Below, in pieces: positions 10,239 to 26,034 of a stretch of DNA of 32,000 bases. Position 1 is the first letter of the stretch, and each line of letters opens with the position of its first letter. Location: the NCBI GenBank assembly GCA_028279745.1, contig JANQNC010000001.1, positions 240,001 through 272,000 of the forward strand, written 5' to 3'. Origin of the DNA: Candidatus Nanoarchaeia archaeon (GTDB lineage: Archaea; Nanobdellota; Nanobdellia; Woesearchaeales; JANQNC01). The translations under genes and the position numbers were made by a program. The notes beneath the pieces are model-generated. The model did not search any database, had not been told where the DNA came from, and saw only the letters and a program-made list of their open reading frames with translations.

Positions 10239-11783
10239 TTATCTTCTAGCGTATTGTCTATTTCTTTGTTTCTTCTTAAGAATGATCTTTTTGTTGATAT
10301 ATCTCATAGGATTCTTTAAAGCTCCCTTTATGCTTGTCAAACTGTTCACATGACCTTTTGAGTTAAGAGGCATATCATATAATCCAAAGTGTAAATGCTC
10401 ACCTGTTGATCTTCCAGATTTACCCATAATGCCAACAACCTTTCCTTGTTTTACTTTATCGCCAGTTCTGACTGAATACTTACTAAGATGACCATACAAG
10501 AAGATGTTTCCAAAATGATCTCTTAACCAAACCTGTTTACCATAACCATTTGTTTTATGATTGCCTGCATAAATCACTTCTCCATCAAGTACTGCAACAC
10601 ATCCAGGTCTTGAGTTAGTAGAAAGATCTATTCCTGTGTGGAACTTTCTTGAGCCGTCAAATGGATCGTTTCTATACCCATAAAGAGAGAACACTTGGAA
10701 TTGTTTGCCTGACTCGATAGGCACGATCATATTGTACAAATTTCTCTTCTCGCTAACTAGCTGAACATACTTTTTTGTCTCTTTAGGAAGATATTTGAAA
10801 ACTTTCTCGAACTTAGTGCTCTTAGCTTTGTTCATAGCTTTTCTAACATTGCCTGGCCCACAGTTGTAAGCTGCAATAACCAATCTAGGATCTTTAAACT
10901 GTCTGCTCAGCTTATTATCAACTTCATTAACTGTGAATCTTGCGCACGATACAGGATCAAATCTCCAATCACCTTGTTTTGGATCTTTGCAAGGATTTAG
11001 CTCAGTAAACTTTTTACCTTGAACCCAAAAAGGATAGTTTATCAGATTAAGTTTCAGAGCTTTAGCAGATGCGTTAGCGGTTGGAACTATCGGCTGACCA
11101 AGTCCTCCTGCTCTCACCCATTTTTTCTCGATCTCTCCTGTTTTAAGATTCTTAACTTTAGTTTTTCTCTTAGGTGCTAATGCCAAAGGATCCCATTTAG
11201 ATTCCTGTTCTAATATAGCATAAATCATTGCAGGATCATTAGCTCTTGAGACAACTTTTTCAAGTTTTGTTTTAGGAGTTCTCATGTGGTTAGGGAATGA
11301 ATGAGCTGTGAAAAACTCACTTCCTCTACCAAGAGATGCTGTGAAATATTTTTTAGGATCCATACTTTTAGAATAATGAACTGAAACCCCTTCTCCTGAA
11401 TGCTCAACATCCTTATCTTTGCCAACGTTTGAGAGTAATGCATAACCTAAAGCAATTGTAAGAACTATTGTCGCTAACCCTTTAGGTGTGAAACTAGGTA
11501 AGTATTCAGTTATGTCAAAACCAGATGACTTTCTAGGAATAGCACAAACCACCCCATCTTCATCTGCTTGAGTCTCATTTGAGTATGAAAAGAAATCTTT
11601 AACTTTCTCAACAATGCCTTTCTGTTCTCCATAAATTTGATTGTTCAGACTAGCTTCTTTTTCATCCAACATTTCTTCAAGAAGTGCTTTTTTGCCATTA
11701 GTTCTCAATGCAGTCTCTTGTCTAAGGGATTGTAAATTAGCTAGATCTTTAACGGCTTTCTCTTTATCATCAAATAATGCCAT
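10239..11783 (-). CDS. membrane-anchored lytic transglycosylase (SLT) + M23 peptidase fusion (murein hydrolase)
   Basis: SLT motifs AILEQESKWDPLA (catalytic E-S) and AAYNCGPGNV. M23 motifs HTGIDL and GRSTGEHLHFGLY. TM helix GLATIVLTIALGYALL. The track start at 11807 is a GTG; the first ATG is at 11783. Confidence 0.85.
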   Translation of the reverse strand: MALFDDKEKAVKDLANLQSLRQETALRTNGKKALLEEMLDEKEASLNNQIYGEQKGIVEKVKDFFSYSNETQADEDGVVCAIPRKSSGFDITEYLPSFTPKGLATIVLTIALGYALLSNVGKDKDVEHSGEGVSVHYSKSMDPKKYFTASLGRGSEFFTAHSFPNHMRTPKTKLEKVVSRANDPAMIYAILEQESKWDPLALAPKRKTKVKNLKTGEIEKKWVRAGGLGQPIVPTANASAKALKLNLINYPFWVQGKKFTELNPCKDPKQGDWRFDPVSCARFTVNEVDNKLSRQFKDPRLVIAAYNCGPGNVRKAMNKAKSTKFEKVFKYLPKETKKYVQLVSEKRNLYNMIVPIESGKQFQVFSLYGYRNDPFDGSRKFHTGIDLSTNSRPGCVAVLDGEVIYAGNHKTNGYGKQVWLRDHFGNIFLYGHLSKYSVRTGDKVKQGKVVGIMGKSGRSTGEHLHFGLYDMPLNSKGHVNSLTSIKGALKNPMRYINKKIILKKKQRNRQYARR

Positions 11784-11925
11784 ATTACATTCCTCATCGA
11801 AAACCACCCTCTTTTATGGGTTATAATGAGGGTTCATTTATAAAGTTTTCGGTAATTTACCACTTTTAAGTGCTAACATTTGGACATAAGGAACCTTTAT
11901 AAATACCGAAATCAAAGAGCCAACT

Positions 11926-12648
11926 ATGAAAAAAGTAAAGCTTGGCAATACAAAGCTGAAGGTTTCTAGAATGAGTATAGGCACAGATACAATGCAAAAC
12001 CTATCCATAAAAGAAGGTGCTGAGTTGATGGTTATAGGTTACAAAAAAGGGCTTACATTTTGGGACACAAGCGATGATTATGGGAGTCATCCACAACTAA
12101 AAGTTGCACTTGATAAGGTTGGGCGTAAGAATGTAGTTGTTACAACAAAGATAATGTCTCGTTCATACAAGCAAGCGCAAGTTAGTCTAGCAAAATGCCT
12201 CAAAGAGTTAGGCACCAAATACGTCGATATAATCTTATTGCATGCAGTTGATTCTGTAACAGAGTTCCATAACCGATCTGGAGCACTGAAATATTTACTT
12301 GAGGCAAAGAAAAAAGGTTTAGTGAAAGTTGTAGGATTGTCAACCCATAATGCAAACATGGCAAAATACTGTGCAACACAAGATAAGATAGAAGTGATAT
12401 TAGCAACAATAAATTATCGAGGAAATCATGTGCATGGCGGCTTGAATAATATGAAAAAGGCCATGGAATTAAACCATAAAAACGGCAAAGGAGTTTATGC
12501 AATGAAAGTTCTAGGTAGAGGCAGCATAAAAGATATAGAAAGAGCTATCGCTTATGTCAAAAAGCTAGATTATATTGACTCCTTATGTATAGGCGTACAA
12601 AATAAAGAACAGCTAAAAGAAGACATAAAAATCTTCGAATCTATCTGA
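11926..12648 (+). CDS. aldo/keto reductase family oxidoreductase (short form)
   Basis: N-terminal KLGNTKLKVSRMSIGT, then WDTSDDYGSHP, VVTTK and YVDIILLHAVD match the AKR signature order. Confidence 0.8.
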   Translation: MKKVKLGNTKLKVSRMSIGTDTMQNLSIKEGAELMVIGYKKGLTFWDTSDDYGSHPQLKVALDKVGRKNVVVTTKIMSRSYKQAQVSLAKCLKELGTKYVDIILLHAVDSVTEFHNRSGALKYLLEAKKKGLVKVVGLSTHNANMAKYCATQDKIEVILATINYRGNHVHGGLNNMKKAMELNHKNGKGVYAMKVLGRGSIKDIERAIAYVKKLDYIDSLCIGVQNKEQLKEDIKIFESI

Positions 12649-12943
12649 TATCTTTAGCATGAATATAGTTTCCGACCAAGACTTCTTTCATCACAACACC
12701 CTTAACAGACACAGTATCTCCTTCTTTAGGAAGTTCTTCAGAAGATACAGAAATCTTATCTCCTTCAATATCTGTTAAAGTGAATCCAGAAAGCTTGCCT
12801 ATCTTGATAACATTAGAAACTTCTCCTCTGACAGTTACAGTTTCACCCATAAATTCATCAGGATTTTCCTTGATGTCTTCAATTGAGGTGGTGCAACCTG
12901 TTAGAAGAACTAAGCATGCTAACAAAATTATGATTGCTTTCAT
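12641..12943 (-). CDS. small lipoprotein with an OB-fold-like domain
   Basis: Lipobox LVLLTGC. GETVTVRGEV...GDTVSVKGVV beta-rich pattern typical of OB-fold (BOF/tRNA_anti-like) domains. Confidence 0.5.
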   Translation of the reverse strand: MKAIIILLACLVLLTGCTTSIEDIKENPDEFMGETVTVRGEVSNVIKIGKLSGFTLTDIEGDKISVSSEELPKEGDTVSVKGVVMKEVLVGNYIHAKDIR

Positions 12944-14468: not shown

Positions 14469-15179
14469 ATGAGAAAGATTATGTTATTCATGTTGACATT
14501 TTTCCTAATGATCTCAGCAGTCAATGCAGCAACAATACAAGGCACAGTATATGATTGGGAGCTAAACCCGATAGATAAAGCAGTTATTGAGATTAACACA
14601 ACCCCAAGACAGACTATCGTTGCAGCAGCAGGTGATTATTCTGTTGAGCTTGATCTCGGATCTTATTCAATAAAAGCTACAGATAGAGAAGGCAATGAAG
14701 AGATCGAAACTGTAAACGTTGTGAAAGAAGGAACTTACAATTTAGACATAATAATGTTCCCTTCATTTGATGATCCTGAAAAGATCTTTAACGACTCAGA
14801 ATTTAACCCCGATCAGGAAATAAGCGAAGATGTTCTTGAAGAGACCCCAATAACCAATTACCTTATTTGGGGAGTCGCGTTACTGATCATAATAGGATTA
14901 GTAATAAGTTCACTCTCAAGATTCAAGAGAGGAGAAACCGAAATAAAAAAGGAAGTTACCGAGCTAAAACAAGAAGTCAAGAAAAAAGAAGTTGATCCTG
15001 AACTAAGTAAGATAGTAGAAGCAATAAAGAACTCAGGAGGAAGAACAACACAAAAAGAGTTAAGAAAACAGTTCCCTTCAAGTGAAGCAAAAATAAGCTT
15101 AATGATAACTGAATTAGAAAAAAAAGGAATTATAGAAAAAATAAAGAAAGGAAGAGGAAATATTTTAGTTCTAAAGTAA
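14469..15179 (+). CDS. single-pass membrane protein: extracellular carboxypeptidase-regulatory-like beta domain + cytoplasmic winged-HTH
   Basis: Signal peptide. ATIQGTVYDW...GDYSVELDLGSYSIKATD resembles a CarboxypepD_reg-like fold. TM helix YLIWGVALLIIIGLVISSL. C-terminal GGRTTQKELRKQFPSSEAKISLMITELEKKGIIEKIKKGRGNILVL has a MarR/ArsR-like wHTH pattern. Confidence 0.6.
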   Translation: MRKIMLFMLTFFLMISAVNAATIQGTVYDWELNPIDKAVIEINTTPRQTIVAAAGDYSVELDLGSYSIKATDREGNEEIETVNVVKEGTYNLDIIMFPSFDDPEKIFNDSEFNPDQEISEDVLEETPITNYLIWGVALLIIIGLVISSLSRFKRGETEIKKEVTELKQEVKKKEVDPELSKIVEAIKNSGGRTTQKELRKQFPSSEAKISLMITELEKKGIIEKIKKGRGNILVLK

Positions 15180-16110: not shown

Positions 16111-18519
16111 ATGGACAGAAACAATAAGCTAAAGTTATTTCTTATACCTACATTACTCTCATTATCATTGCCTGCAGTATTCGCACAAGGGATACAAGGC
16201 ATATTAAACAACCTATTTAAGGGATTAAACACCTTAATAACAACAGACCATACAAAATTCGGGTTAACTTTCATTGCATTCTTTATAGTATTATATGGAG
16301 TATTCTCAGCAGGACTTAATGCTGTGCCTGCATTCAAAGCTGACGGAAAACTAAGCAAGAACGGAAAACTAATTGCAGTAGGCATGTCACTCTTAGGCGT
16401 AATTGGGATATTCGTAACAACAGACGGAAGACCTTATGACGTAACAAAAAACGTGCTTGAAGCATTTGGGATATATGGAGCCATATTCGTATCTGTGTTG
16501 ATATTCCTGATGCTGTACTTTGCATTCAAAGACACAGACTTCTACAACGACAGACAATGGCAACTGTTAATCTGTTATTTAGGTATTGCAATGTTCCTTG
16601 GAGGAGTAATATCAAACCACACCTCCTGGAGTGATGCAGCAGTAATCTTCCTGATAATAGGTGGTTTCTTCCTGCTTAGCTCATTAATAACTTCAGGAGG
16701 AGATGATGAAGGAGGAGGTCCACTAAAAGGAATAAAAGACTTCTTCAAACCAAAAGGACCAAAATCACCGCCAGCAGCAAAAACACCAAAAGGGCCAGTG
16801 CCAAATGGAGTAAATGGCATTGAGATCAAGTGGGATCCAGAAAAGAAAACAGTAAACATATCATGGGAACCAAACCCAGATTCTGATGAGGTAACAACAT
16901 ACGTAGTAAGAAAAGCAAGATACGGCAGTCCAAGATGGGGCAACCCAATATACTCAAGTCCAAAAGTAAGAGACAAATCAAACCCTCTACCTGATACAGC
17001 AGTAGAACCAAAAAAGACATATGTGTATAAGATAACAGCATACAACAACAATGGAGAAAGTAGTGGTGAAAAGTACGACATAACAATTCCACCACCTGAT
17101 GAAGTGCCTCCTGAACCAGTTACAGCAAAAAAAGGAAAAACAGAAAAAGGAGAGAAAAAGGAGAAAGAATATCCCGATCTAAACATAGAGATAACATCAC
17201 CACAAAACAATCTAGAATTCTTAAAGAAAGGAGACTATCCAAAACCAGAAGAGAAATTTGTGAGGCTAGAAGGAAAAGCTGAAGGAACAGCACCTTACGC
17301 ATGGGCATGGTACGTGAAGGATGAACAAGCAGGAAGAGGGGACAGAGCAATACAAAAGATAGGGGAAGGAACTGGAGATACAATAAGAGAAGAATCATTA
17401 GATCTATCACAAGCAGCACCAGGAAAAAGAGAAATCTACCTGACAGTACGAGACTCAGGAAACAAAACAGGAAACGCAAAAATAACAATCAACGTAAAAG
17501 AAGAAGGCGCACTATCTGTAGTAATCCTAACCAAAGACGGCACAGAATTCCCAGATAACGCATCAGTAAACATAAAAGGAGTTGTGAGTGACAAAAAAAT
17601 ACCAAAAGGAACCAAACTATGGATAGACTTCCTTGTTAACGGAGAACATGCAAAACTCATGAACGAAGTAAAAAATTCTGAAGAGTTTGAGATAAACGTA
17701 AAAGCATTTGAACAAGGAAAAGAATACAAAGTAGGAATAGTATATTATGAAGAAGCAACAAAGAAATGGAAAAGAACAGATGAAAATAAAGAAATAACAA
17801 TCAAAGTAGGAACGGCTGAAGAAAAGAAAGAGGAAGATACAGGTAAAAAAGACGCAACTGAAGAAGTGGTTGAAGAGATAAAGAAAGAAGAAAAAATTAT
17901 CGATGATATGCAAGAAGAAGAAAAACAGATAGAAGAATTAATGACACACTTCAAAGGAGCTTATAAAACATCATTTGAAGCCATGCAAGAAGCACTAATC
18001 TCAATAGGGCATGGAACATTCAGCAGAACTGCAGTTGCACAATCAATCAAGACGGCCTTATCCAACCAGATGAAAAGCACAAAAGGGATATTGACAAGAA
18101 CAGTAAATCACGTTGCAAAACTAAATGAAAAAAGCGAAAGCATCAGAGCGTTAGCAAAAAAAAGGTTCAGTGAAAAAGTAGCAAAAAGAAACAAGATACA
18201 AGGAAGCGATCCAGCAATACAAAAACAAGATCAAAAATTCTTTGACCTACTATCAAAACTAGATCAAGTTGCACTATCCAGAAAATCTTCAATAAGACTA
18301 GTGACCAAATCAGTAACAGAATTTACAACAACTGTTGAACTGCTTACAAAAAGTCTAGATGCCAAACCAATGAAAGTGAATTTGAGCGTGCAGCACATAT
18401 CAAAGCTGATATACATAAGAGAGACAATAACAACCAAGATCAAAAAGATAGACGAAGCAAACGAACTAGAAAAACAATTATTAGCAGAAAGCAAAAGCTA
18501 CAAAGTTTCAGGAGAATAA
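16111..18519 (+). CDS. large membrane protein: signal peptide + about 5-TM domain + Pro/Lys linker + FN3 + two Ig-like domains + helical C-terminal region
   Basis: Signal peptide ...LSLPAVFAQG and TM block to about aa 195. FN3-like IEIKWDPEKKTVNISWEPNPDSDEVTTYVVRK...TYVYKITAYNNNGES. Beta-rich repeats, then an E/K-rich helical tail. The N-terminal domain is paralogous to that of 19450..20970. Confidence 0.8.
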   Translation: MDRNNKLKLFLIPTLLSLSLPAVFAQGIQGILNNLFKGLNTLITTDHTKFGLTFIAFFIVLYGVFSAGLNAVPAFKADGKLSKNGKLIAVGMSLLGVIGIFVTTDGRPYDVTKNVLEAFGIYGAIFVSVLIFLMLYFAFKDTDFYNDRQWQLLICYLGIAMFLGGVISNHTSWSDAAVIFLIIGGFFLLSSLITSGGDDEGGGPLKGIKDFFKPKGPKSPPAAKTPKGPVPNGVNGIEIKWDPEKKTVNISWEPNPDSDEVTTYVVRKARYGSPRWGNPIYSSPKVRDKSNPLPDTAVEPKKTYVYKITAYNNNGESSGEKYDITIPPPDEVPPEPVTAKKGKTEKGEKKEKEYPDLNIEITSPQNNLEFLKKGDYPKPEEKFVRLEGKAEGTAPYAWAWYVKDEQAGRGDRAIQKIGEGTGDTIREESLDLSQAAPGKREIYLTVRDSGNKTGNAKITINVKEEGALSVVILTKDGTEFPDNASVNIKGVVSDKKIPKGTKLWIDFLVNGEHAKLMNEVKNSEEFEINVKAFEQGKEYKVGIVYYEEATKKWKRTDENKEITIKVGTAEEKKEEDTGKKDATEEVVEEIKKEEKIIDDMQEEEKQIEELMTHFKGAYKTSFEAMQEALISIGHGTFSRTAVAQSIKTALSNQMKSTKGILTRTVNHVAKLNEKSESIRALAKKRFSEKVAKRNKIQGSDPAIQKQDQKFFDLLSKLDQVALSRKSSIRLVTKSVTEFTTTVELLTKSLDAKPMKVNLSVQHISKLIYIRETITTKIKKIDEANELEKQLLAESKSYKVSGE

Positions 18520-18536
18520 TCAGGGGGAATAAAAAA

Positions 18537-19388
18537 ATGGCAAACATAATCGACTTCATGTCATGGAAATCAGGAAAATCAAGATCACGAACAGACCGAA
18601 GAATATCAGAGGAATTAGCAGACATAGTTGATAAGATAAAAGAACTGGAATCAAGAGTGCCAGAAGACATACAAAAAGGGGATGTCGAAAAAACATTCAA
18701 AGACGTTTCTGACTTACTAAACTTCATAATACAAGAAGAAAGAGATCTAGAACAGATAGAAAAAGATTCAGCAATACTAGACAAAGAATTGCTTCAAGAA
18801 GTGGGAACAATAAGCCAAGAACTTCAATCAGTACAAAAAGACAGCAGTCTTCAAGACCAGATACAACAACTCCAAGATCTTTCTGGAAGAATAAGAAAAC
18901 TGATAGACAAAGCAAGAATAGACGCAAGAAACGCAGAAGGAGACCGAGAAAAAATAATAAAATACAGAGCGTTCTTAGGATATCACCAAACTGCAAGAGA
19001 CATAAGACACGCAACAAGAGAGATAGGTAGACTAATAGGCAAAGAAAAAGAGCTTGAAAAACACATAAAAAACCATGAAAAAGAAGAAGAAATCATCAAA
19101 AAAGACGTTGCTGAATTCATAAAAGTAGCAGAACAAGAAGCAAAGGACATATACAAAGTAGAACATGATGATATAATCTTTACCTTCTTCATAATAAATA
19201 AGCTTCAGAATATTTACAATGTATTACTAAAGCTAAAACAGGAAGGATTTGAAAAAGAATATCCAGAAAAACAAAAATTGCTAGAGCACAAGTATGCTGA
19301 GGCACAACAACTACTACAAGAAGCAACAACCGAAGCGTACAGCATGGAAAAATACTTGAAAAGAAAAGCCAAAAAACTAGCTGCATAA
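18537..19388 (+). CDS. coiled-coil protein (283 aa), no TM segment
   Basis: All-helical E/K/Q-rich sequence. AGGGGGA lies about 8 nt upstream of the ATG, which is 17 nt after the upstream stop. Confidence 0.65.
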   Translation: MANIIDFMSWKSGKSRSRTDRRISEELADIVDKIKELESRVPEDIQKGDVEKTFKDVSDLLNFIIQEERDLEQIEKDSAILDKELLQEVGTISQELQSVQKDSSLQDQIQQLQDLSGRIRKLIDKARIDARNAEGDREKIIKYRAFLGYHQTARDIRHATREIGRLIGKEKELEKHIKNHEKEEEIIKKDVAEFIKVAEQEAKDIYKVEHDDIIFTFFIINKLQNIYNVLLKLKQEGFEKEYPEKQKLLEHKYAEAQQLLQEATTEAYSMEKYLKRKAKKLAA

Positions 19389-19449
19389 AAGCAGCTCAAT
19401 TCTTTCTTTTATGATAAGATTTATAAAATAAAATAGCTAGAATACTAAT

Positions 19450-20970
19450 ATGAATGTCAAAAGAGCCGCGTTTGGGTTATTTCTAGCAATACCTGCAGTT
19501 TATGCAGCAAGAGGTGACTCAATACAAGATACATTAACAAGATTTTTTACAGGGCTACATGACATACTAACAGTTGAATATATCAAATGGGGACTAGGAT
19601 TTTTAGCATTAGGAATAATCTTCTACGGTGTTTTTTCTGCAGTAATAAAAAATATCCCCATATTCAATGATGGACAGAACATAAACTCTTACGGAAAGAT
19701 GATAAGTGTTGGGTTCACGATAGGTGCGTTATTGGGGATATACACAACAGACAGGATGGGTCTGTTTGGAAATTTGAAAGGATTAAACTTGCTCTTACCG
19801 GGGATAGCAGTAAGCATCGTAATGATACTATCACTAAACCGAAAATTCTCAGCAAGCAAATATGGATACATTGCAGAAAACTCAAGAGGAATATCAATGT
19901 TCCTAACAGCATTACTGATGTTTTTCTTATCAGGATTCATGGAATCACCAGAACTTATACCTGTAGGGATAGGAATAGTCATTACCACCCTTGTGCTTAC
20001 CGGGCTAAGCCACAAGTTTGAAGAGATGCACGAAACAAGAATAAGAACAGACGAACACTATAGAGAAAAAGAAGAAAAAAGAAGAGAGAAGGAAGAAAAA
20101 AAGGTGTTAAAAGAACAAAAAGCAGAGATGAAAAGAGAGAAAGAAATGGGCGCAATGGAAAATTACATCAAACAATACCTTACAGGAAAGGAAGATGAAC
20201 TTAACAGACAAGCAGCACAGACTGAAAAAGAAGAAGACCAAATAATACACAAGATCTACGGCTACTTAGAGATACTTAACAACCTAAAAGCAAGCATAAC
20301 AAAAATGGACAAACAAGTTGCAAAAGGGTATGCAACAAACATAATAGACCGAGTTCAATCAGCAAAAACAACAAAACAACAATATCAAGAATTAGTAAGA
20401 AATGAATTACAAAAACTAACTCAGCTCCTAGTACAAGAAGCAAGCCTAAAAGAAAAACAGGAAGAGCTAACAGACCAAGAGATAAGAGCTATAGAAGGCG
20501 AAGTTAAAAATATACAAAGACAGCTAAAAGGTGAAGAAAGAGACATAATACTAGAACGAAAAGAGATCAAACACACAGTAGAAGAAGCAGAAAAAGCGAT
20601 GGACAGAGGCGAAATAACAAGAATAGAAAAAGAAGAAAAGATACATAATGACATACTAGCAGACCTGATAAAGAAGAAATATGCGGCAAACAAAGAAAAA
20701 GCACTATTATCAAAATTCAACAGAGTAAACAAGTACGAACAAGAAGAAGTACTAAAGATAAGACAACAAGTAGATATGGAAAAATATGTAGAAGCAGCAA
20801 AAGAACTCAAAAAATTACTTGAAAAAGTAAGAGAAGAAGAACAAGCAACAACAAAAATATCAAAAGAACAAAAAGAAGAAGCAGAAAAAACAGAAGATAT
20901 CAAACAGAAAGAATTAGAAGCTGAAAACTTACTAAAAAAAGAAAGAAAGGTTGCCAAGGAAGAAACATAG
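19450..20970 (+). CDS. membrane protein: signal peptide + about 5-TM domain (paralogue of the 16111 N-domain) + about 310-aa E/K-rich coiled-coil tail
   Basis: Shares with the 16111 gene: PAV(F/Y)A..IQ..L..F.GL...T...K.GL.F.A..I.YGVFSA....P.F.......GK.I.VG.....GI..TTD. TATA GATTTATAAAAT lies about 25 nt upstream. Confidence 0.8.
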   Translation: MNVKRAAFGLFLAIPAVYAARGDSIQDTLTRFFTGLHDILTVEYIKWGLGFLALGIIFYGVFSAVIKNIPIFNDGQNINSYGKMISVGFTIGALLGIYTTDRMGLFGNLKGLNLLLPGIAVSIVMILSLNRKFSASKYGYIAENSRGISMFLTALLMFFLSGFMESPELIPVGIGIVITTLVLTGLSHKFEEMHETRIRTDEHYREKEEKRREKEEKKVLKEQKAEMKREKEMGAMENYIKQYLTGKEDELNRQAAQTEKEEDQIIHKIYGYLEILNNLKASITKMDKQVAKGYATNIIDRVQSAKTTKQQYQELVRNELQKLTQLLVQEASLKEKQEELTDQEIRAIEGEVKNIQRQLKGEERDIILERKEIKHTVEEAEKAMDRGEITRIEKEEKIHNDILADLIKKKYAANKEKALLSKFNRVNKYEQEEVLKIRQQVDMEKYVEAAKELKKLLEKVREEEQATTKISKEQKEEAEKTEDIKQKELEAENLLKKERKVAKEET

Positions 20971-21041
20971 AAACCTTTATAAATGAAAAATCACAGGAAT
21001 ATAATAAATCATATTTAATCAAAAAAAGAGGTGAACATCAA

Positions 21042-21539
21042 ATGAGACGTTCTAAAAAAGCAGACCTGAACATGTCAATACAGGCAATTGTAATAATTGT
21101 ACTAGCTATGACACTATTAGGGCTAGGAATAAACTTCATCAGAGGACAGTTCGGTTCTTTGACTGAAACAACAAGTTCTGTACAAGAACAGATAAAACAA
21201 CAGATACTGGACGACTTAAGAACAGGAAACAAAAAACTAAGCTTTCCAGCATCAGAAGTGACAATGGAGAGATCAGACGCTACAGTAATCGCGATCGGAG
21301 TAAAAAACACAGGGAACCAACAGCTAGAATTTAAGATAGATATGGGCTGCACACAAGAAGGAATTGACTTCCTATACCAAGCAGATAAGCCATACACACT
21401 ATCAACCGCAGACGCGCAAGTATACCCTATAAGAGTTACTGCACCAGCAACAACAGGAACATTCCTATGCTCAGTAACAATACTTGAAGGAGAATCAATC
21501 TACGCAGAAAAAGACTTCTTCATAAACGTGGTGGGATAA
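21042..21539 (+). CDS. archaeal type IV pilin-like protein (class III signal peptide)
   Basis: MRRSKKA/DLNMSIQAIVIIVLAMTLLGLGINF: a basic N-terminus, a K-A/D-L candidate prepilin-peptidase site, then a hydrophobic helix. Beta-rich C-domain paralogous to 21799..22317. AGAGGTGA Shine-Dalgarno site. Confidence 0.7.
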   Translation: MRRSKKADLNMSIQAIVIIVLAMTLLGLGINFIRGQFGSLTETTSSVQEQIKQQILDDLRTGNKKLSFPASEVTMERSDATVIAIGVKNTGNQQLEFKIDMGCTQEGIDFLYQADKPYTLSTADAQVYPIRVTAPATTGTFLCSVTILEGESIYAEKDFFINVVG

Positions 21540-21540
21540 A

Positions 21541-21759
21541 ATGAAAGGAAAAAAAAGGTTAACACAAGACCAAGAATTCCAGATCATGAAACTAGTTTTA
21601 GATAAGTTCTTATGGTTAGGATTTGGAATTATGGCATGGGGAGTAGTGAGAATCTTCCAAAAAGCAGTAACAGACGGGATCTTGTTATTGATTGGCGGAG
21701 TTGTGTTACTGATATTATTCATTTGGTTAATCGTTAAAGAATACGAAATAATCAAATAA
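21541..21759 (+). CDS. small 2-TM membrane protein (72 aa)
   Basis: Starts 1 nt after the upstream stop. Two hydrophobic helices (FLWLGFGIMAWGVV; ILLLIGGVVLLILFIWLIV). Confidence 0.55.
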   Translation: MKGKKRLTQDQEFQIMKLVLDKFLWLGFGIMAWGVVRIFQKAVTDGILLLIGGVVLLILFIWLIVKEYEIIK

Positions 21760-21763
21760 AACC

Positions 21764-21789
21764 TTTTTTCTTTTTTTTCTAATTTTTAT
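21764..21789 (+). terminator. oligo-T tract (archaeal termination/attenuation signal) between the 2-TM gene and the second pilin gene
   Basis: CTTTTTTCTTTTTTTTCTAATTTTTA immediately after the TAA at 21757-21759. Confidence 0.3.
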
Positions 21790-21798
21790 CGGTGAAGT

Positions 21799-22317
21799 AT
21801 GAGAAAAAAAGCAGCAATCGAACTGAGTATGAATTTAATCGTAGTTATAATTCTATCAATAGTCATTTTAGGCGCAGGCATCGCATTAACAAGAACAATA
21901 TTCGGCGGAGCGGAGGAAATCCAGCTAAGCTTAGATGAAAGAACACAATCCGCAATAGAAGACTCATTAAGAGACAGCCCAGTAAGCATACCGTTTGCAG
22001 ACAAAGAAGCGGGAAGAGGAGACGCAAGATTATTTGGATTGGGCGTGATGAACATGCTCGGAACAAACAAAGAGTTCAGGTTTGATGTACAACTACTAAG
22101 AGTGCAACCCTCAACAATAAACACAGAGTTAGATATACTTTATAACACAGAATCATTCCCACTAGAAGACAATAATGTTAAAGTTTCACAAATCAGAGTA
22201 GATGTGCCAAAAGATGCAGAAACAGGAACATACGTGTATACTGTCCGTGTTGAATACTTAGAAGGTGCAGTTTGGCAACAGTATCAATCAAGAAACATCT
22301 ATATGACAGTAAGGTAA
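21799..22317 (+). CDS. archaeal type IV pilin-like protein (class III signal peptide), paralogue of 21042..21539
   Basis: MRKKA/AIELSMNLIVVIILSIVILGAGIAL. The C-domain aligns with the first pilin (ARLFGLGVMNMLGTNKEFRFD vs ATVIAIGVKNTGNQQLEFKID; TGTYVYTVRV vs TGTFLCSVTI). GGTGA Shine-Dalgarno site. Confidence 0.7.
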   Translation: MRKKAAIELSMNLIVVIILSIVILGAGIALTRTIFGGAEEIQLSLDERTQSAIEDSLRDSPVSIPFADKEAGRGDARLFGLGVMNMLGTNKEFRFDVQLLRVQPSTINTELDILYNTESFPLEDNNVKVSQIRVDVPKDAETGTYVYTVRVEYLEGAVWQQYQSRNIYMTVR

Positions 22318-22323
22318 ATTCTT

Positions 22324-22626
22324 ATGATATACAATAAATTAGTCAGAGACAAAATACCAGAAATAATAGAAAAAAGAGGGGAGAAGTATAAAATACATAT
22401 CGCAGATGATAAAGAGTACTCTGACAAAATTAAAGAAAAACTAAAAGAAGAAGTTGAGGAATTCTTAAAAGAACCAAATAAAAAAGAGTTAGCAGATGTG
22501 TTGGAAGTAGTATACGCACTAGCCAAAGCGATTGGGATAAGCAGAGAAGAACTAGAAAAAGAAAGAAAAGATAGAGAAGAAAAAAGAGGTGCATTCAAGA
22601 AAAAAATAATCTTAGAAGAATCTTAA
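22324..22626 (+). CDS. MazG-like all-alpha NTP pyrophosphohydrolase (predicted house-cleaning type)
   Basis: YNKLVRDKIPEIIEKRG...KLKEEVEEF...ELADVLEVVYAL...KRGAFKKKIIL matches the small KLVRDKIP-type MazG/HisE-like family. Confidence 0.75.
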   Translation: MIYNKLVRDKIPEIIEKRGEKYKIHIADDKEYSDKIKEKLKEEVEEFLKEPNKKELADVLEVVYALAKAIGISREELEKERKDREEKRGAFKKKIILEES

Positions 22627-23416: not shown

Positions 23417-23965
23417 TTATTTGCTTACAAACTTGCTGTCTTTAATGAAGAATCTCCACTGTAAATCTTTACCTTGACTTATACCAATCCTTCCAGAAGT
23501 TTTTATCTCTTTATCTTTGATTTTTTTGTAATGATACACTTTTATTTTCTCGTTAACGTCTGTTGAGTTTTGTAGCTTAGTTATTTTCAGTGCATTACAC
23601 AACTTACCGGGGCCAGACATCAAGTTATGAAGGTTGTCTGTTTTTCTTCTACGTTTCATTTTGTTAACTCCATCTAAAGGCTCTAACGCTCTGATCAAAA
23701 CAGCACCAACCTCGCCTTTATTTGTCGTAAAATTAAGACAGTAATACATACCATAAATGATGTAGACATAAACCTTTCCGTAAGAAGAAAGCATTATTTC
23801 AGATCTTGGAGTTATTTTATAACCGTGCGAAGCAGGATCTGACTTGTAAGCTTCAGTCTCAACAATTATGCCTGAAGTGCCGTTAAACTCTACAACTTTT
23901 CCTAAAAGTTCTTTTGCAACAACTAAAGCATCTCTTGCAAAAAAAGAGTTAGATACAGGTTTCAT
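23417..23965 (-). CDS. mpg: DNA-3-methyladenine glycosylase, AAG/MPG family
   Basis: FFARDALVVAKELLGK...GIIVETEAYKSDPASHGY...TPRSEIM...GKVYVYIIYGMYYCLNF...AVLIRALEPL...SGPGKLCNAL follows the AAG/MPG family signature order. Confidence 0.85.
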   Translation of the reverse strand: MKPVSNSFFARDALVVAKELLGKVVEFNGTSGIIVETEAYKSDPASHGYKITPRSEIMLSSYGKVYVYIIYGMYYCLNFTTNKGEVGAVLIRALEPLDGVNKMKRRRKTDNLHNLMSGPGKLCNALKITKLQNSTDVNEKIKVYHYKKIKDKEIKTSGRIGISQGKDLQWRFFIKDSKFVSK

Positions 23966-25917
23966 CTTTCAATAACTTTGCCGTTAGAAGCGTTAATCTT
24001 CAGATGTCTTTTTCCTTTTTTAGAAGAGAGAACAACATCATAAACGGGCAGATAGATTAGTTCGTGTTCAACAATTTCAGAAGCACCAAACCAGTTATTG
24101 ACAGACTTTCCTAATTTTTCAACCTCAACCTTTGGCTTCATTGTTTTAGCATCAACATGTTCAGAAGATGTCTTGATGGGGAAAGTTAACTTGTTAAGTG
24201 TAGGGATAGATAAAGCTGTAAATACACTCCACAACTGACTCTTTCCAGCTTTGCCATCTTTAGTAACTAACCTTTTCTTTGAAAGACCATTTAATGCAGC
24301 ACTAACAGATTGAGTGTTTAAGTTTGTCTTAGCAGCAAGATCGTGAGAACTTAAAGGTTTAGACCCAAATGACTTAAGAACTGAAACTTCATTAGATGAA
24401 AGATTAAGTATCTGGTTAAAATGTTCACACTCTTTATAGTCTGATCTCAAAGGGTTGCCGCTTACAGCATTGAACAAGATTGTATGTTCATTAACCTTCT
24501 TTCCAAGAAGACCTTTCTTTAATGACTTAACCTTTGCTTTGTATAAAGGCTCAAAAGTCAACTGCATAGACTCGATATTCTCCTTATGAGGCCCTAACAA
24601 GATAAACAACTTCTTTTTCTTCTTATCCACAAGATCATAAGCTTGAGGCTCCCTTAAAGATATGGGAATATGCGACACACCTTCAGAAGTTTTTGTTTCA
24701 ACCGATTTAGTCTTTGTCTTTTTTGCCTGATATGTCGAGAATTTATCTCTCAACTCTTTTGATGTGACTTTCTTTACAGAGTCATCATTCAAAGTCTTAT
24801 GAGGCGACAGTAATTCTCTAACTTTTAACTCAATCACCTGATCGAAGTTATCAGGGCTGAAAAGCATAAACTCCCCTGGTTTAAGCTGAGGAAGACTAGA
24901 ACTTATCTGAGATATTTTAGAACCTGCAACAGACTTCAAAGCATTGACAATCTTAGAGATGTCTTGTCTCGTTGTTAATCTGCCTATAGCCCAAGATGAA
25001 AATTGAGCGAAAGCTTTGTAATCTATGTCGCCAGGGTTTTGCGTTGAGGCAATACAACCAACACCATACTTTCTAGCTTGCTTGTACAATAATTTCAAAA
25101 TAGGTTTTGATAAAGGTTTAATTGAGCCTGCAGGCAGGTAAGATGCGATTTCATCAATATAGTATAAAACTTGCAGAGTATCTTTTGGGTTACATAACAT
25201 CCACTGATACAATTCTGTCGTTAACATGGATAAGAAAAATTGCTTTTCTTTCTCATCATGCAAAGTATTCAGATAGATTATGCTGATCTGACCTTTTTTC
25301 AGGAAGTGCTTCATATCTAAAGGCACACCAAAATTAAAAAGAAGATCTTTTTCACCAACTGAGAGATAGCTAAGCTTTCTTATCATAGACTTAACTTCTT
25401 TATCTGAAGAAAAAAGATCTTTAACTTTATCCTCAAGATGATCAGGAAGGTCCTTAAGATGATTTATCAAATCTTCAAAATTATTAATTACACATTTTCC
25501 CTTACAAGCATTCATAAAAATAAAATAGATTAAACTTCTTGCAGCATTGCCTTTATCATCATCCTTATAGCCTAAAAGGTTAGCGATAGAGTTTGCAGTT
25601 TGATGAACAACATTAATCAATTCTTCATTATCAAGCTCATTTGAAGGCTTTTTGAAAGGATTTATGCTTAACGGGATCCCTTTGCTGGATGCAGGGGTGA
25701 ATACTACAGTCTTAAGCTCTGGGTTCATTGCAAAAGAAGCTAAGTCACCCTGAGAATCAACCAAGATACAAGGCAAACCTTGTTTAACTGCTTCTTCAAT
25801 AACAACTTTAGAGAACACCGTTTTTCCACTTCCACTGCCCCCAAACACAGCTAAATGCTTCTTTAAAGACTCAATAGGAAAAGTAACTGCTTTGTTATCA
25901 GATTTGCCCACATTCAT
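23962..25917 (-). CDS. HerA/FtsK-superfamily P-loop ATPase (DUF87/DUF853-like) with a C-terminal winged-HTH region
   Basis: N-terminal Walker A HLAVFGGSGSGKT followed by ILVDSQGDL. Walker B-like VLYYIDEIASYLP. GCIASTQNPGDID and IGRLTTRQD resemble the HerA/FtsK sensor regions. C-terminal LSSHDLAAKTNLNTQSVSAALNGLSKKRLV is wHTH-like. ATGA overlap with mpg. Confidence 0.7.
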   Translation of the reverse strand: MNVGKSDNKAVTFPIESLKKHLAVFGGSGSGKTVFSKVVIEEAVKQGLPCILVDSQGDLASFAMNPELKTVVFTPASSKGIPLSINPFKKPSNELDNEELINVVHQTANSIANLLGYKDDDKGNAARSLIYFIFMNACKGKCVINNFEDLINHLKDLPDHLEDKVKDLFSSDKEVKSMIRKLSYLSVGEKDLLFNFGVPLDMKHFLKKGQISIIYLNTLHDEKEKQFFLSMLTTELYQWMLCNPKDTLQVLYYIDEIASYLPAGSIKPLSKPILKLLYKQARKYGVGCIASTQNPGDIDYKAFAQFSSWAIGRLTTRQDISKIVNALKSVAGSKISQISSSLPQLKPGEFMLFSPDNFDQVIELKVRELLSPHKTLNDDSVKKVTSKELRDKFSTYQAKKTKTKSVETKTSEGVSHIPISLREPQAYDLVDKKKKKLFILLGPHKENIESMQLTFEPLYKAKVKSLKKGLLGKKVNEHTILFNAVSGNPLRSDYKECEHFNQILNLSSNEVSVLKSFGSKPLSSHDLAAKTNLNTQSVSAALNGLSKKRLVTKDGKAGKSQLWSVFTALSIPTLNKLTFPIKTSSEHVDAKTMKPKVEVEKLGKSVNNWFGASEIVEHELIYLPVYDVVLSSKKGKRHLKINASNGKVIER

Positions 25918-26013: not shown

Positions 26014-26034
26014 TATTTGCTATTTCTTCAAAGC

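What the first reader, a model, noticed from the sequence alone, without database searches (positions are those of the whole stretch)
16111..22317. Co-directional 6-kb cluster: two paralogous polytopic membrane proteins with giant tails, a coiled-coil protein, two pilin-like proteins and a 2-TM protein (candidate novel surface/contact apparatus)
Six plus-strand genes are separated by only 17, 61, 71, 1 and 39 nt. (i) An 802-aa protein: signal peptide, about 5 TM helices, a Pro/Lys linker, FN3, two Ig-like domains and a helical C-terminal region. (ii) A 283-aa soluble coiled-coil protein. (iii) A 506-aa protein whose signal peptide and TM domain are paralogous to (i), followed by an E/K-rich coiled coil of about 310 aa. 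(iv) and (vi) Two paralogous proteins with class III signal peptides (KKA/DLNMS..., KKA/AIELSMN...). (v) A 72-aa 2-TM protein. No canonical pilus ATPase (PilB/FlaI), platform protein (PilC/FlaJ) or prepilin peptidase is present in the window. The architecture of (i) and (iii) is a cleavable signal peptide, then a multi-TM block, then a long variable hydrophilic extension, duplicated in tandem. That recalls VirB6/TrbL/CedA-type channel components of conjugation-like machines. Those machines also use small pilins and a VirB4/HerA-class ATPase, and one such ATPase gene lies 1.6 kb downstream on the other strand. This resemblance is architectural only; I cannot demonstrate homology by eye. The alternative reading is an adhesion or filament system for attachment to a host cell.
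Basis: inference. Interest (0 to 1): 0.75.

Follow-up and report, generated by a model that had tools for sequence, protein, structure and literature searches.

The report
Woesearchaeal membrane-anchor and pilin cluster
A conserved gene cluster of a tiny, probably symbiotic archaeon (Woesearchaeota) encodes two membrane proteins that share an undescribed anchor domain with very variable tails, a coiled-coil partner and two pilin-like proteins; it looks like cell-surface attachment gear tied to type IV pili, not a conjugation-like DNA channel.

Summary
Both claimed paralogies hold (E 4e-18 and 7e-14). The cluster splits into two separable conserved modules.

Module A is (i)-(ii)-(iii). Genes (i) and (iii) share an N-terminal domain: a cleavable signal peptide, an amphipathic helix and five TM helices. 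This domain defines an unannotated family of at least 215 clusters; every named member is Woesearchaeota. Its C-terminal tails range from 0 to 2,100 aa. They carry adhesin-type beta-sandwiches, papain-like proteases or coiled coils. Gene (ii) is its conserved soluble partner.

Module B is (iv)-(v)-(vi): two class-III-signal pilin-like proteins flanking a well-conserved 2-TM protein.

Module A keeps a fixed chromosomal site beside L35Ae, TctA and an SLT+M23 murein hydrolase. In one distant genome it follows a complete type IV pilus operon. Module B lies next to a prepilin peptidase elsewhere.

The VirB6/T4SS reading failed every test: Pfam, hhalign at 0.5% probability, and Foldseek. The HerA-like ATPase is syntenic in none of the related loci.

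Best reading: a type-IV-pilus-linked surface attachment system. Tail topology is unresolved, because charge rules place the tails in the cytoplasm while their domain content suggests they are outside.

The parts
16111..18519 (+). (i), 802 aa. Layout: signal peptide (aa 1-25, cleavage site VFA|Q), amphipathic helix (27-45), five TM helices (51-194), Pro/Lys linker (196-236), FN3-like domain (242-317), two Ig/PKD-like domains (about 360-570), helical C-terminal region (about 575-802). Founding member of the anchor-domain family.
   Evidence: The family profile finds 215 representatives. The anchor domain is 58% identical to the L001 orthologue but the tail only 30%.
18537..19388 (+). (ii), 283 aa. 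Soluble helical or coiled-coil protein with no signal peptide and no TM segment. Conserved partner of the anchor-family genes. Ends in ...KKLAA.
   Evidence: Homologues lie directly next to anchor-family genes in L001, L008, L009, L010, L011 and L014. No Pfam, NCBIfam or PDB relative apart from generic coiled coils.
19450..20970 (+). (iii), 506 aa. Paralogous anchor domain (aa 1-190) followed by a 310-aa E/K-rich coiled-coil tail.
   Evidence: The same architecture recurs in L001, L010 (451 aa) and L011. The tail is conserved (49% identity to L001), unlike the tail of (i).
21042..21539 (+). (iv), 165 aa. Class-III-signal (type IV pilin-like) protein with a beta-sandwich C-terminal domain.
   Evidence: It is 53% identical to the L002 gene that lies about 0.6 kb from a Peptidase_A24 gene. 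Faint NCBIfam hits to UpsA and ArlG.
21541..21759 (+). (v), 72 aa. Two-TM hairpin protein with N and C termini predicted in the cytoplasm. The best-conserved member of the pilin module.
   Evidence: It is 59-63% identical to the L002 and L005 homologues, which always sit directly after the (iv) homologue; in L005-L007 the (vi) homologue follows immediately, in L002 it lies about 2 kb further on.
21799..22317 (+). (vi), 172 aa. Second pilin-like protein, paralogue of (iv).
   Evidence: Ten homologues were found, one of them named Candidatus Woesearchaeota.
10239..11807 (-). 522-aa membrane-anchored murein hydrolase (SLT lytic transglycosylase plus Peptidase_M23). Linked to module A by synteny and by a fusion protein.
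   Evidence: Pfam SLT 4e-11 and M23 1.3e-23. Its orthologue lies about 0.5 kb upstream of the (i) orthologue in L001. Family member P0091 carries a near-threshold SLT match fused in front of the anchor domain.
12641..12943 (-). 100-aa lipoprotein-like protein (LLTGC lipobox) that travels with the hydrolase and (i).
   Evidence: Its orthologue lies between SLT-M23 and the (i) orthologue in L001 (E 7e-33). Sequence shown.
22324..22626 (+). 100-aa MazG-like ORF that starts 6 nt after (vi) on the same strand. It may be co-transcribed. Whether it belongs to the system is uncertain.
   Evidence: The Pfam MazG-like hit is sub-threshold (E 1.9e-4). It is not conserved next to the trio in L002 or L005.

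Best explanation
The cluster is two adjacent, separable modules of a Woesearchaeota-specific cell-envelope attachment system that works with type IV pilus machinery encoded elsewhere in the genome.

Module A, (i)-(ii)-(iii).
- Shown: two paralogous proteins sit in the membrane through a shared, previously undescribed anchor domain. It consists of a cleaved Sec signal peptide, an amphipathic helix and five TM helices.
- Shown: the domain has no conserved catalytic residues. Its only conserved polar feature is the first loop, F-x(n)-L-S/N-K-x-G-K.
- Inferred: the anchors of (i) and (iii) associate in the membrane.
- Inferred: (i) presents a fast-evolving tail of FN3/Ig-type domains. In relatives the tail carries CarboxypepD_reg, Big_1, invasin-like or SdrD-like modules, papain-like proteases or an SLT domain. 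This tail binds or degrades the surface of a partner cell.
- Inferred: (iii) contributes a conserved coiled-coil stalk or scaffold, and the soluble coiled-coil protein (ii) binds this assembly.

Module B, (iv)-(v)-(vi).
- Inferred: two pilin-like proteins are processed by a prepilin peptidase and assembled into a short filament or surface structure. The conserved 2-TM protein (v) acts as a membrane accessory.

The neighbouring membrane-anchored SLT+M23 hydrolase suggests the target is a peptidoglycan-walled bacterium (inferred).
For: - Family size and spread. 215 representatives at E<=1e-3 and 91 at <=1e-10. The domain is N-terminal in 145 of 151 scored, and tails range from 0 to 2,137 aa. All five named members are Candidatus Woesearchaeota.
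- Signal peptide. The cleavage site is conserved: Pro at -5 in 36 of 47, V/A at -3 in 42 of 47, Ala at -1 in 42 of 47.
- Tail content in 82 long members: CarboxypepD_reg 20, fn3 7, Peptidase_C1 4, Big_1 4, SdrD_B 3, Invasin_D3 2, plus SpaA, collagen and gamma-PGA hydrolase.
- Evolutionary rates. The tail of (i) is 30% identical to its orthologue while the anchor is 58%. The tail of (iii) is 49% identical.
- Synteny of module A. The (i)-(ii) pair recurs in L001, L008, L009, L010, L011 and L014. (iii)-type genes recur in L001, L010 and L011. Tandem anchor paralogues occur in six loci.
- Link to type IV pili. In L013, two pilin-like genes, T2SSE and two T2SSF genes are followed directly by two anchor-family genes on the same strand. 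In L010, two T2SSF genes lie 8 kb upstream. The window and L001 have pilin genes adjacent. In L002 the pilin module sits next to Peptidase_A24.
- Link to murein hydrolysis. SLT+M23 lies beside (i) in L001 and 4.3 kb away in the window. P0091 shows an SLT-anchor fusion. Large extracellular SLT proteins are already noted as a Woese-/Pacearchaeota trait (PMC8204110).
- Precedent. Archaeal type IV pilus loci commonly carry lineage-specific adhesin-like proteins and intracellular coiled-coil proteins (PMC4858521).
Against: - Topology. The positive-inside rule places the tails in the cytoplasm. Mean K+R is 3.66 in loop 1 and 0.40 in loop 4, with five TM helices after an N-out start. Surface adhesion would then be impossible unless the amphipathic helix (KD 0.11, hydrophobic moment 1.39) also spans the membrane.
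- (ii) has no signal peptide.
- The pilus link is not universal. T2SSE/F or pilin genes lie within 10 kb in 4 of 8 informative loci. The window and L001 are close relatives, so they are not independent. L009, L011, L012 and L014 show none.
- No pilus ATPase or platform gene is in the window.
- No function rests on homology. The anchor domain, (ii) and (v) match nothing in Pfam, NCBIfam, PDB sequences or PDB folds.
- There is no expression or localisation data.
- The host is unknown.
Confidence: 0.45

Rival explanations
1. Conjugation-like or Ced-like conduit. (i) and (iii) would be VirB6/CedA-type channel subunits with extended tails. (v) or (iv)/(vi) would supply the pilus. The SLT+M23 enzyme would be the VirB1/PrgK-type wall hydrolase. 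The HerA-class ATPase at 23962-25917 would power DNA or protein transfer.
For: - The architecture resembles extended VirB6 proteins: N terminus out, five TM helices, large variable C-terminal extension, tandem paralogues.
- SLT plus M23 with an N-terminal TM anchor is the domain set of Gram-positive VirB1-like hydrolases such as PrgK (my own knowledge; domains).
- The ATPase has weak CedD, VirB4 and TrwB matches.
- Faint TrbC/VirB2 and T4SS_pilin Pfam hits occur in 3 and 2 of 47 anchor domains, at E about 0.01.
Against: - hhalign against six VirB6 proteins gives 0.5% probability, and against TrwL/VirB2 0.4%.
- There is no TrbL Pfam match.
- Foldseek against the PDB and BFVD gives nothing at E<=0.001.
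- tblastn finds no plasmid homologue.
- ATPase scores are far below family cut-offs: CedD 47 bits against 600, VirB4 34 bits against 643.
- The ATPase has no homologue in any related locus.
- The ATPase sits on the other strand, overlaps a DNA glycosylase gene, and its best hit is PADLOC mad8, next to a mad1-like HTH gene.
- No relaxase, coupling protein or VirB8-like gene was seen.
- The locus is chromosomal and syntenic with L35Ae and TctA.
- (v) has N and C termini inside, the opposite of VirB2.
Confidence: 0.07
2. Intracellular membrane-tethered scaffold. The charge-based topology is correct and all tails are cytoplasmic. Module A would then be a membrane-anchored coiled-coil and beta-sandwich scaffold, for example organising the membrane, cell shape or division, or the cytoplasmic face of a contact site. 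(ii) would be its soluble partner. The adjacency to pilin genes would be incidental.
For: - The positive-inside pattern holds across 47 sequences.
- (ii) has no signal peptide, and its family often ends in a conserved ...[KR]xAA motif.
- The tail of (iii) is a highly charged coiled coil with no Cys and no N-glycosylation sequons.
- A quarter of family members have almost no tail.
- Modules A and B are separable.
Against: - The tail domains are classes that are almost always extracellular: Big_1, Invasin_D3, SdrD_B, SpaA, FN3, PKD and papain-like proteases.
- P0091 places an SLT-like domain, which must act outside the cell, in the same polypeptide.
- The tail of (i) diverges quickly, as expected for an exposed surface.
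- The organism does export charged coiled coils: the 358-aa protein at 13070-14146 has a signal peptide.
Confidence: 0.2
3. Generic surface-display anchor unrelated to pili. The anchor domain would simply be the lineage's way of fixing diverse exoproteins (adhesins, proteases, hydrolases) to the membrane, working on its own. The proximity to pilin and pilus genes would reflect clustering of envelope genes, not a shared machine.
For: - The tails are extremely diverse, and some members stand alone, such as L012.
- Four of eight loci show no pilus-related gene within 10 kb.
- The pilin trio occurs without any anchor-family gene in L002.
Against: - This does not explain the conserved partner (ii) or the conserved coiled-coil paralogue (iii).
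- A five-helix domain with a strongly conserved loop (pLDDT 96-97 at residues 60-100) is elaborate for a passive anchor.
- L013 places two family genes directly after T2SSE and T2SSF on the same strand.
Confidence: 0.2

Closest known systems
Archaeal type IV pilin-like proteins and adhesion pili (class III signal peptide proteins such as UpsA/B, AapA/B, EpdA-E, PilA; census in PMC4858521)
   Same: (iv) and (vi) have the defining N-terminus: a short basic leader ending in K-K-A/G, then about 20 hydrophobic residues. They are 165-172 aa long with a beta-rich head, and they occur as tandem paralogues. A homologue lies next to a Peptidase_A24 prepilin peptidase in L002. Such loci often carry lineage-specific adhesins and intracellular coiled-coil proteins.
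   Different: No Pfam or NCBIfam pilin model is matched; UpsA gives only E 0.012. The window has no ATPase, platform or peptidase gene. The conserved 72-aa 2-TM protein between the two pilins, and the five-TM anchor family, are not among the components listed in the passages of that census that I read.
Extended VirB6 proteins of type IV secretion systems (F-plasmid TraG, Rickettsiales RvhB6 paralogue arrays) and CedA of the archaeal Ced DNA-import system
   Same: The resemblance is architectural only: N terminus outside, about five TM helices, a large and variable hydrophilic C-terminal extension, tandem paralogues in a host-dependent organism, and a nearby SLT-type wall hydrolase.
   Different: No similarity was detected in sequence, profile or fold. 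There is no syntenic VirB4/CedB ATPase, coupling protein or relaxase. The locus is chromosomal. CedA, PrgH and TcpH themselves could not be compared here.
[quoted passage not shown]
   Same: Same lineage. An SLT domain in an archaeon, proposed to bind or degrade bacterial cell walls. Family member P0091 (1,660 aa) combines an SLT-like domain with the anchor domain, and the window encodes an SLT+M23 enzyme close to the cluster.
   Different: In the passages I read, that work reports only the SLT domain and leaves most of the module's families unannotated. It does not mention the anchor domain, its partner (ii), the coiled-coil paralogue or the pilin link.
Multi-domain bacterial surface adhesins (Big_1/invasin, SdrD, SpaA-type)
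   Same: The tails of (i)-type proteins are strings of the same beta-sandwich modules, and they diverge quickly between relatives.
   Different: Those adhesins attach through LPXTG/sortase, beta-barrels or a single TM helix. Here the attachment is an N-terminal five-helix domain, and the predicted topology does not obviously place the tail outside.

Membership tests
VirB6/TrbL (T4SS polytopic channel subunit) | Sequence-profile match to TrbL/VirB6 (Pfam PF04610) or to VirB6 alignments | tested here: not met
   No TrbL hit for (i) or (iii) at E<=1. TrbL is not among the 25 families listed (of 46 matched) for the 47 anchor domains. hhalign of A2 against six MPF_T VirB6 proteins gives 0.5% probability, E 0.12.
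VirB6/TrbL (T4SS polytopic channel subunit) | Fold similarity to solved VirB6 (TrwI in the R388 T4SS structures) | tested here: not met
VirB6/TrbL (T4SS polytopic channel subunit) | Polytopic membrane protein with five or more TM helices, periplasmic or external N terminus, and often a hydrophilic extension | tested here: met
   Signal peptide plus five TM helices. The charge distribution gives N-out and C-in. This is architecture only and is not specific to the family.
Type IV secretion / Ced system as a whole | A VirB4/CedB-class ATPase encoded with the membrane components | tested here: not met
   The window ATPase scores 34 bits against a cut-off of 643 for VirB4, 33 against 700 for CedB and 47 against 600 for CedD. 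It has no homologue in any of 15 related loci. Its best PADLOC hit is mad8 at 1e-17.
VirB2/TrbC/CedA1 conjugative pilin | Small two-helix hairpin with N and C termini outside and a basic cytoplasmic loop; profile match to TrbC or T4SS_pilin | tested here: not met
   (v) has no Pfam hit, and its basic N terminus predicts N and C inside. hhalign of A2 against TrwL gives 0.4%. Only faint TrbC or T4SS_pilin hits were seen, in 3 and 2 of 47 anchor domains.
Archaeal type IV pilin-like (class III signal peptide) proteins | Short basic leader ending in K/R-G/A/S, followed directly by a hydrophobic helix of about 20 residues | tested here: met
   The alignment of 13 homologues gives the consensus M-x-KK[AG][AS][IL][EN]LS-N-LVVIILSIVILG. 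Hydropathy peaks are 2.6 and 2.95.
Archaeal type IV pilin-like (class III signal peptide) proteins | Genomic association with a prepilin peptidase (Peptidase_A24) and/or T2SSE/T2SSF assembly genes | tested here: inconclusive
   Not met in the window. Met in L002, where the (iv)-(v) homologues lie about 0.6 kb downstream of Peptidase_A24. The rest of the source genome could not be read.
Archaeal type IV pilin-like (class III signal peptide) proteins | Cleavage by the prepilin peptidase and assembly into a filament | not testable with these tools
   Needs biochemistry or cryo-EM.
Archaeal type IV pilin-like (class III signal peptide) proteins | Match to a curated pilin model | tested here: not met
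   The UpsA NCBIfam hit is E 0.012 at 15.7 bits against a cut-off of 130, and ArlG is E 0.011. There is no Pfam pilin family. Pilin sequences are known to diverge quickly, so this is weak evidence.
SLT lytic transglycosylase / M23 peptidase (murein hydrolase at 10239-11807) | Pfam domains above the gathering score | tested here: met
   SLT scores 42.9 bits against a cut-off of 21.3. Peptidase_M23 scores 83.5 bits against 28.7.
HerA/FtsK-superfamily ATPase (23962-25917) | DUF87/HerA central domain above the gathering score | tested here: met
   DUF87 scores 52.1 bits against a cut-off of 23.2. HerA_C scores 37.3 against 22. It was judged not to be part of the cluster.

The most novel reading that the evidence does not exclude
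The anchor domain may not be a passive anchor. It could be a new kind of membrane translocation or presentation module. Its amphipathic helix and five TM helices would oligomerise, with (i) and (iii) together and (ii) bound on the cytoplasmic side. The resulting pore would let each protein's own C-terminal passenger cross the single archaeal membrane, or be pushed into a bacterial host after the SLT/M23 enzymes open the wall. The passenger starts on the cytoplasmic side by topology yet is built from extracellular-type adhesin, protease and hydrolase domains. This would be an archaeal counterpart of autotransporters or extended-VirB6 effector presentation, evolved independently in Woesearchaeota.
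Probability: 0.1. Interest if true: 0.85.

Novelty: new variant of a known kind. Interest (0 to 1): 0.55.

Why it matters
Woesearchaeota are abundant, uncultured, small-genome archaea. They are presumed to live attached to other cells, but nothing is known about how they attach or to whom.

This locus supplies a concrete, conserved and lineage-wide candidate:
- a family of at least 215 sequence clusters with a new membrane domain;
- hypervariable adhesin- or enzyme-bearing tails;
- a fixed partner protein;
- recurring links to type IV pilus genes and to murein hydrolases, which only make sense against bacteria.

It turns the question [quoted passage not shown] into testable predictions. One can test tail localisation, binding of the tails to peptidoglycan or bacterial surfaces, and co-variation of tail repertoires with co-occurring bacteria.

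It also flags a real puzzle. Extracellular-type domains sit on the predicted cytoplasmic side of a five-TM domain.

Tried and rejected
- Full-length (i) against 5.8 billion proteins found only itself. Low-complexity words probably swamped the candidate list. The anchor domain alone found one relative. Only the full HMMER profile search opened up the family.
- The first AlphaFold run, on a 3-sequence alignment, was unusable at pLDDT 54. The second, on 47 sequences, reached 86.
- Profile searches of the anchor domain and of (ii) against PDB sequences gave only noise or generic coiled coils.
- The search for related loci rejected alignments A2 and A3 because they lacked a conserved stretch. Genome-contig scans with A4 and A8 found nothing. 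The metagenome scan with A8 gave one 2.8-kb contig. Synteny therefore rests on 14 loci obtained by exact-protein look-ups, plus that one contig.
- An exact look-up of (i) did not return the source contig, so the rest of the 1.3-Mb genome could not be checked for pilus genes.
- tblastn of the anchor domain against plasmids found no match.
- Possible homology between (ii) and the helical ends of (i), (iii) or the 358-aa protein was rejected.
- The sigma-70 promoter and intrinsic terminator scan did not exceed shuffled controls and is not suited to archaea.
- A mobile-element or ICE origin was considered and rejected because of the conserved L35Ae/TctA neighbourhood.
- An exosortase-like enzyme was considered because of faint EpsH hits in 4 of 47 members. 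It was rejected because the family has no conserved Cys, His or Arg. The nearly invariant residues are F75, G85 and G177.

Full report
OBSERVATION

The six plus-strand ORFs are exactly as described: 802, 283, 506, 165, 72 and 172 aa, with gaps of 17, 61, 71, 1 and 39 nt. The window is 31-40% G+C throughout, with no compositional island, and it has no tRNA or Rfam feature.

The N-terminal regions of (i) and (iii) are paralogous: 38% identity over 91 aa, E 4e-18. So are (iv) and (vi): 32% over 157 aa, E 7e-14.

Hydropathy shows the following:
- a signal-peptide-like segment plus five TM segments in (i);
- a similar block in (iii);
- one N-terminal hydrophobic helix in each of (iv) and (vi);
- two TM segments in (v).

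None of the six reaches a curated threshold in Pfam, NCBIfam or PADLOC. The FN3 hit (E 5.6e-4) and the PKD-like hit (E 0.007) in (i) are sub-threshold.

The window has no T2SSE, T2SSF or Peptidase_A24 gene. The gene at 23962-25917(-) is a HerA/FtsK-class ATPase (DUF87, 52 bits) with a C-terminal winged helix.

ORGANISM

All six proteins are singletons at 90% identity. They derive from one 1.30-Mb NCBI contig. Homologues with a source name are all Candidatus Woesearchaeota. Related loci carry the archaeal/eukaryotic ribosomal protein L35Ae. I infer that the source is a Woesearchaeota-type DPANN archaeon.

THE ANCHOR DOMAIN IS A LARGE, UNDESCRIBED FAMILY

A word-indexed search found only one relative, P0008 at 57% identity. 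A full HMMER search with a 3-sequence profile then found 215 cluster representatives at E<=1e-3 and 91 at <=1e-10.

The domain is N-terminal in 145 of 151 proteins scored. What follows it ranges from nothing to 2,137 aa, with a median of 197.

Across 47 members the signal-peptidase site is conserved: Pro at -5 in 36, Val/Ala at -3 in 42, Ala at -1 in 42. After it comes an amphipathic helix (mean hydropathy 0.11, hydrophobic moment 1.39), then five hydrophobic helices.

The only nearly invariant residues are F75, G85 and G177. They include a basic loop motif, F-x(n)-L-S/N-K-x-G-K, and no catalytic-type residues. AlphaFold2 on this alignment gives pLDDT 86, rising to 96-97 around that loop.

The domain matches nothing known:
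- no Pfam family beyond noise;
- no PDB sequence;
- no PDB or viral fold at E<=0.001;
- no plasmid-encoded protein.

TAILS

Among 82 long members, the Pfam hits at E<=1e-3 are as follows:

| Domain | Members |
|---|---|
| CarboxypepD_reg | 20 |
| fn3 | 7 |
| Peptidase_C1 | 4 |
| Big_1 | 4 |
| SdrD_B | 3 |
| Invasin_D3 | 2 |
| SpaA, collagen, gamma-PGA hydrolase | single hits each |

One protein, P0091 (1,660 aa), has a near-threshold SLT lytic-transglycosylase match in front of the anchor domain (20.3 bits against a gathering score of 21.3, E 4e-4).

Against its L001 orthologue, (i) is 58% identical in the anchor but only 30% in the tail. The coiled-coil tail of (iii) is 49% identical, and (v) is 59-63% identical to its homologues. 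So (i)-type tails are the fast-evolving element, while (ii), (iii) and (v) are conserved parts.

SYNTENY

Fourteen related loci were retrieved by exact-protein look-ups, plus one short contig from a metagenome scan. They were scanned with profiles.

Module A:
- The (i)-(ii) pair recurs in L001, L008, L009, L010, L011 and L014.
- A (iii)-type gene (anchor plus E/K coiled coil) recurs in L001, L010 and L011.
- Tandem anchor paralogues occur in the window, L001, L010, L011 (three copies), L013 and L014.
- The locus sits by L35Ae and/or TctA in the window, L001, L010, L011 and L014. This marks an inherited chromosomal site, not a mobile element.

Module B:
- The (iv)-(v)-(vi) trio recurs in L005-L007.
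- It also recurs in L002. There it lies about 0.6 kb from a Peptidase_A24 prepilin peptidase, and no anchor-family gene lies within 10 kb.

The two modules are therefore separable. They are adjacent only in the window and in its relative L001.

The most informative locus is L013. It runs, all on one strand: two class-III-signal genes, a 697-aa protein, T2SSE, two T2SSF genes, and then two anchor-family genes. L010 has two T2SSF genes 8 kb upstream.

The SLT+M23 hydrolase and a 100-aa lipoprotein lie immediately upstream of the (i) orthologue in L001. In the window they lie 4.3 and 3.2 kb upstream.

TESTING THE T4SS READING

I built an alignment of six MPF_T VirB6 proteins: R388 TrwI plus five relatives at 26-31% identity.
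- hhalign against the 47-sequence anchor profile gave 0.5% probability.
- hhalign against the VirB2 pilin TrwL gave 0.4%.
- Pfam TrbL was not matched.
- Foldseek returned no T4SS chain.

The ATPase falls far below every T4SS or Ced model cut-off. It has no homologue in any related locus. It overlaps a methylpurine-DNA glycosylase gene by 4 nt. Its best hit is PADLOC mad8 (1e-17), and the divergent HTH gene beside it hits mad1 (1e-7).

I conclude that the ATPase belongs to a different DNA-related module. The VirB6 resemblance is architectural only. CedA, PrgH and TcpH could not be compared directly.

TOPOLOGY PUZZLE

Over 47 sequences the mean K+R content per segment is as follows:

| Segment | Mean K+R |
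|---|---|
| Loop 1 | 3.66 |
| Loop 2 | 1.45 |
| Loop 3 (7.5 residues) | 1.26 |
| Loop 4 | 0.40 |

The signal peptide is cleaved, and P0091 has an extracellular-type SLT-like domain ahead of the anchor. Together with the charge pattern, this gives N-out, five TM helices and tail-in.

That fits the charged coiled coil of (iii) and the signal-less (ii). It clashes with the adhesin, protease and hydrolase content of the (i)-type tails. The tails would be outside if the amphipathic helix also spans the membrane, for example as a pore-lining helix in an oligomer. I could not resolve this question.

The organism does export charged coiled coils. The 358-aa protein at 13070-14146 has a signal peptide.

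TRANSCRIPTION UNITS (INFERENCE ONLY)

- TATA-like boxes precede (i), (iii) and (iv).
- T-tracts follow (ii) and (v).
- GGGG or GGTGA Shine-Dalgarno-like motifs precede (i), (ii), (iv) and (vi).
- A weak hairpin sits at the end of (ii), though the scan as a whole is at chance level.

Several transcription units are more likely than one operon.

LITERATURE

- Castelle et al. 2021 (PMC8204110) report large extracellular SLT-domain proteins and a module of 51 mostly unannotated families specific to Woese-/Pacearchaeota. They suggest bacterial hosts. The passages I read do not mention the anchor domain or this gene arrangement.
- Makarova et al. 2016 (PMC4858521) show that archaeal type IV pilus loci often include lineage-specific adhesin-like proteins and intracellular coiled-coil proteins. 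This fits the present picture.
- The Patescibacteria T4SS survey (PMC12102498) gave no link to DPANN.

CONCLUSION

Most likely (about 0.45), this is a Woesearchaeota-specific envelope attachment system in two modules, functionally tied to type IV pilus machinery and to murein hydrolysis.
- Shown: the family, its architecture, the conserved partners, the synteny, and the negative T4SS tests.
- Inferred: oligomerisation of the anchors, surface exposure of the tails, filament formation by (iv)/(vi), and a bacterial target.

It is a new variant of known kinds (pilin-like surface systems and modular adhesins), built on a membrane domain with no detectable relatives.

Noticed in passing
window 23962-25917(-) and 26017-26724(+): The best hit of the HerA-like ATPase is PADLOC mad8 (E 1e-17). 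The divergently transcribed 235-aa double-HTH_17 protein hits mad1 (E 1e-7). The ATPase also carries a C-terminal MarR-type winged helix and overlaps the methylpurine-DNA glycosylase gene (23417-23965) by 4 nt. This may be a defence-like or DNA-repair module unrelated to the cluster.
   Followed up: partly
window 18537-19388; L001 12951-13802; L008 2866-3720; L009 14508-15437; L010 15047-15916; L011 17131-18126(-): Proteins of the (ii) family end in a conserved ...[KR]-x-A-A carboxy terminus (KKLAA, HKIAA, HRLAA, KRAA, SRAA). The L014 homologue lacks it. A conserved C-terminal Ala-Ala could be a recognition or degradation tag.
   Followed up: partly
window 14469-15179(+): A 236-aa protein with a signal peptide, a CarboxypepD_reg domain, one TM helix and a cytoplasmic winged helix (DUF7343, E 2e-14). 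It looks like a membrane-tethered one-component regulator. Its sensor domain is of the same type as many anchor-family tails, and it lies 0.9 kb upstream of (i).
   Followed up: no
window 10239-11807(-): An archaeon encodes a membrane-anchored SLT lytic transglycosylase plus M23 peptidase. Archaea have no murein, so the enzyme suggests activity against bacterial walls. The orthologue in L001 is 40% identical.
   Followed up: partly
window 13070-14146(-): A 358-aa protein with a signal peptide and a long E/K/D-rich coiled coil lies between the hydrolase and the cluster. It has no homologue in the related loci examined.
   Followed up: no
window 22324-22626(+): A 100-aa MazG-like ORF starts 6 nt after (vi) on the same strand, so the co-directional run has seven genes. 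A MazG-family gene also lies 1.5 kb upstream of the anchor gene in L009.
   Followed up: no
L010 17721-18107 and L011 19728-20138: In two loci a conserved 128-136-aa four-TM protein follows the (iii)-type gene, in the position where the window has the pilin trio. It has no homologue in the window.
   Followed up: no
window 4080-4967(+): A Fic/DOC-domain protein with strong PADLOC hits (PDC-S04 at 1e-35, SoFic at 3e-31).
   Followed up: no
window 2374-3330, 8774-9547, 12641-12943: Several ORFs begin with lipobox-like signals (LVGC, LTGC). This suggests lipoprotein-type anchoring of exported proteins in this archaeon. The ORF at 8774-9547 is Cys-rich, like the giant Cys-rich protein at the start of the L013 pilus locus.
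   Followed up: no
L001 10001-12902 and 13904-15516; L011 18262-19694: In these metagenome contigs the (i) or (iii) orthologues are split by a frameshift or by runs of N. These are assembly problems, not real gene fission.
   Followed up: partly
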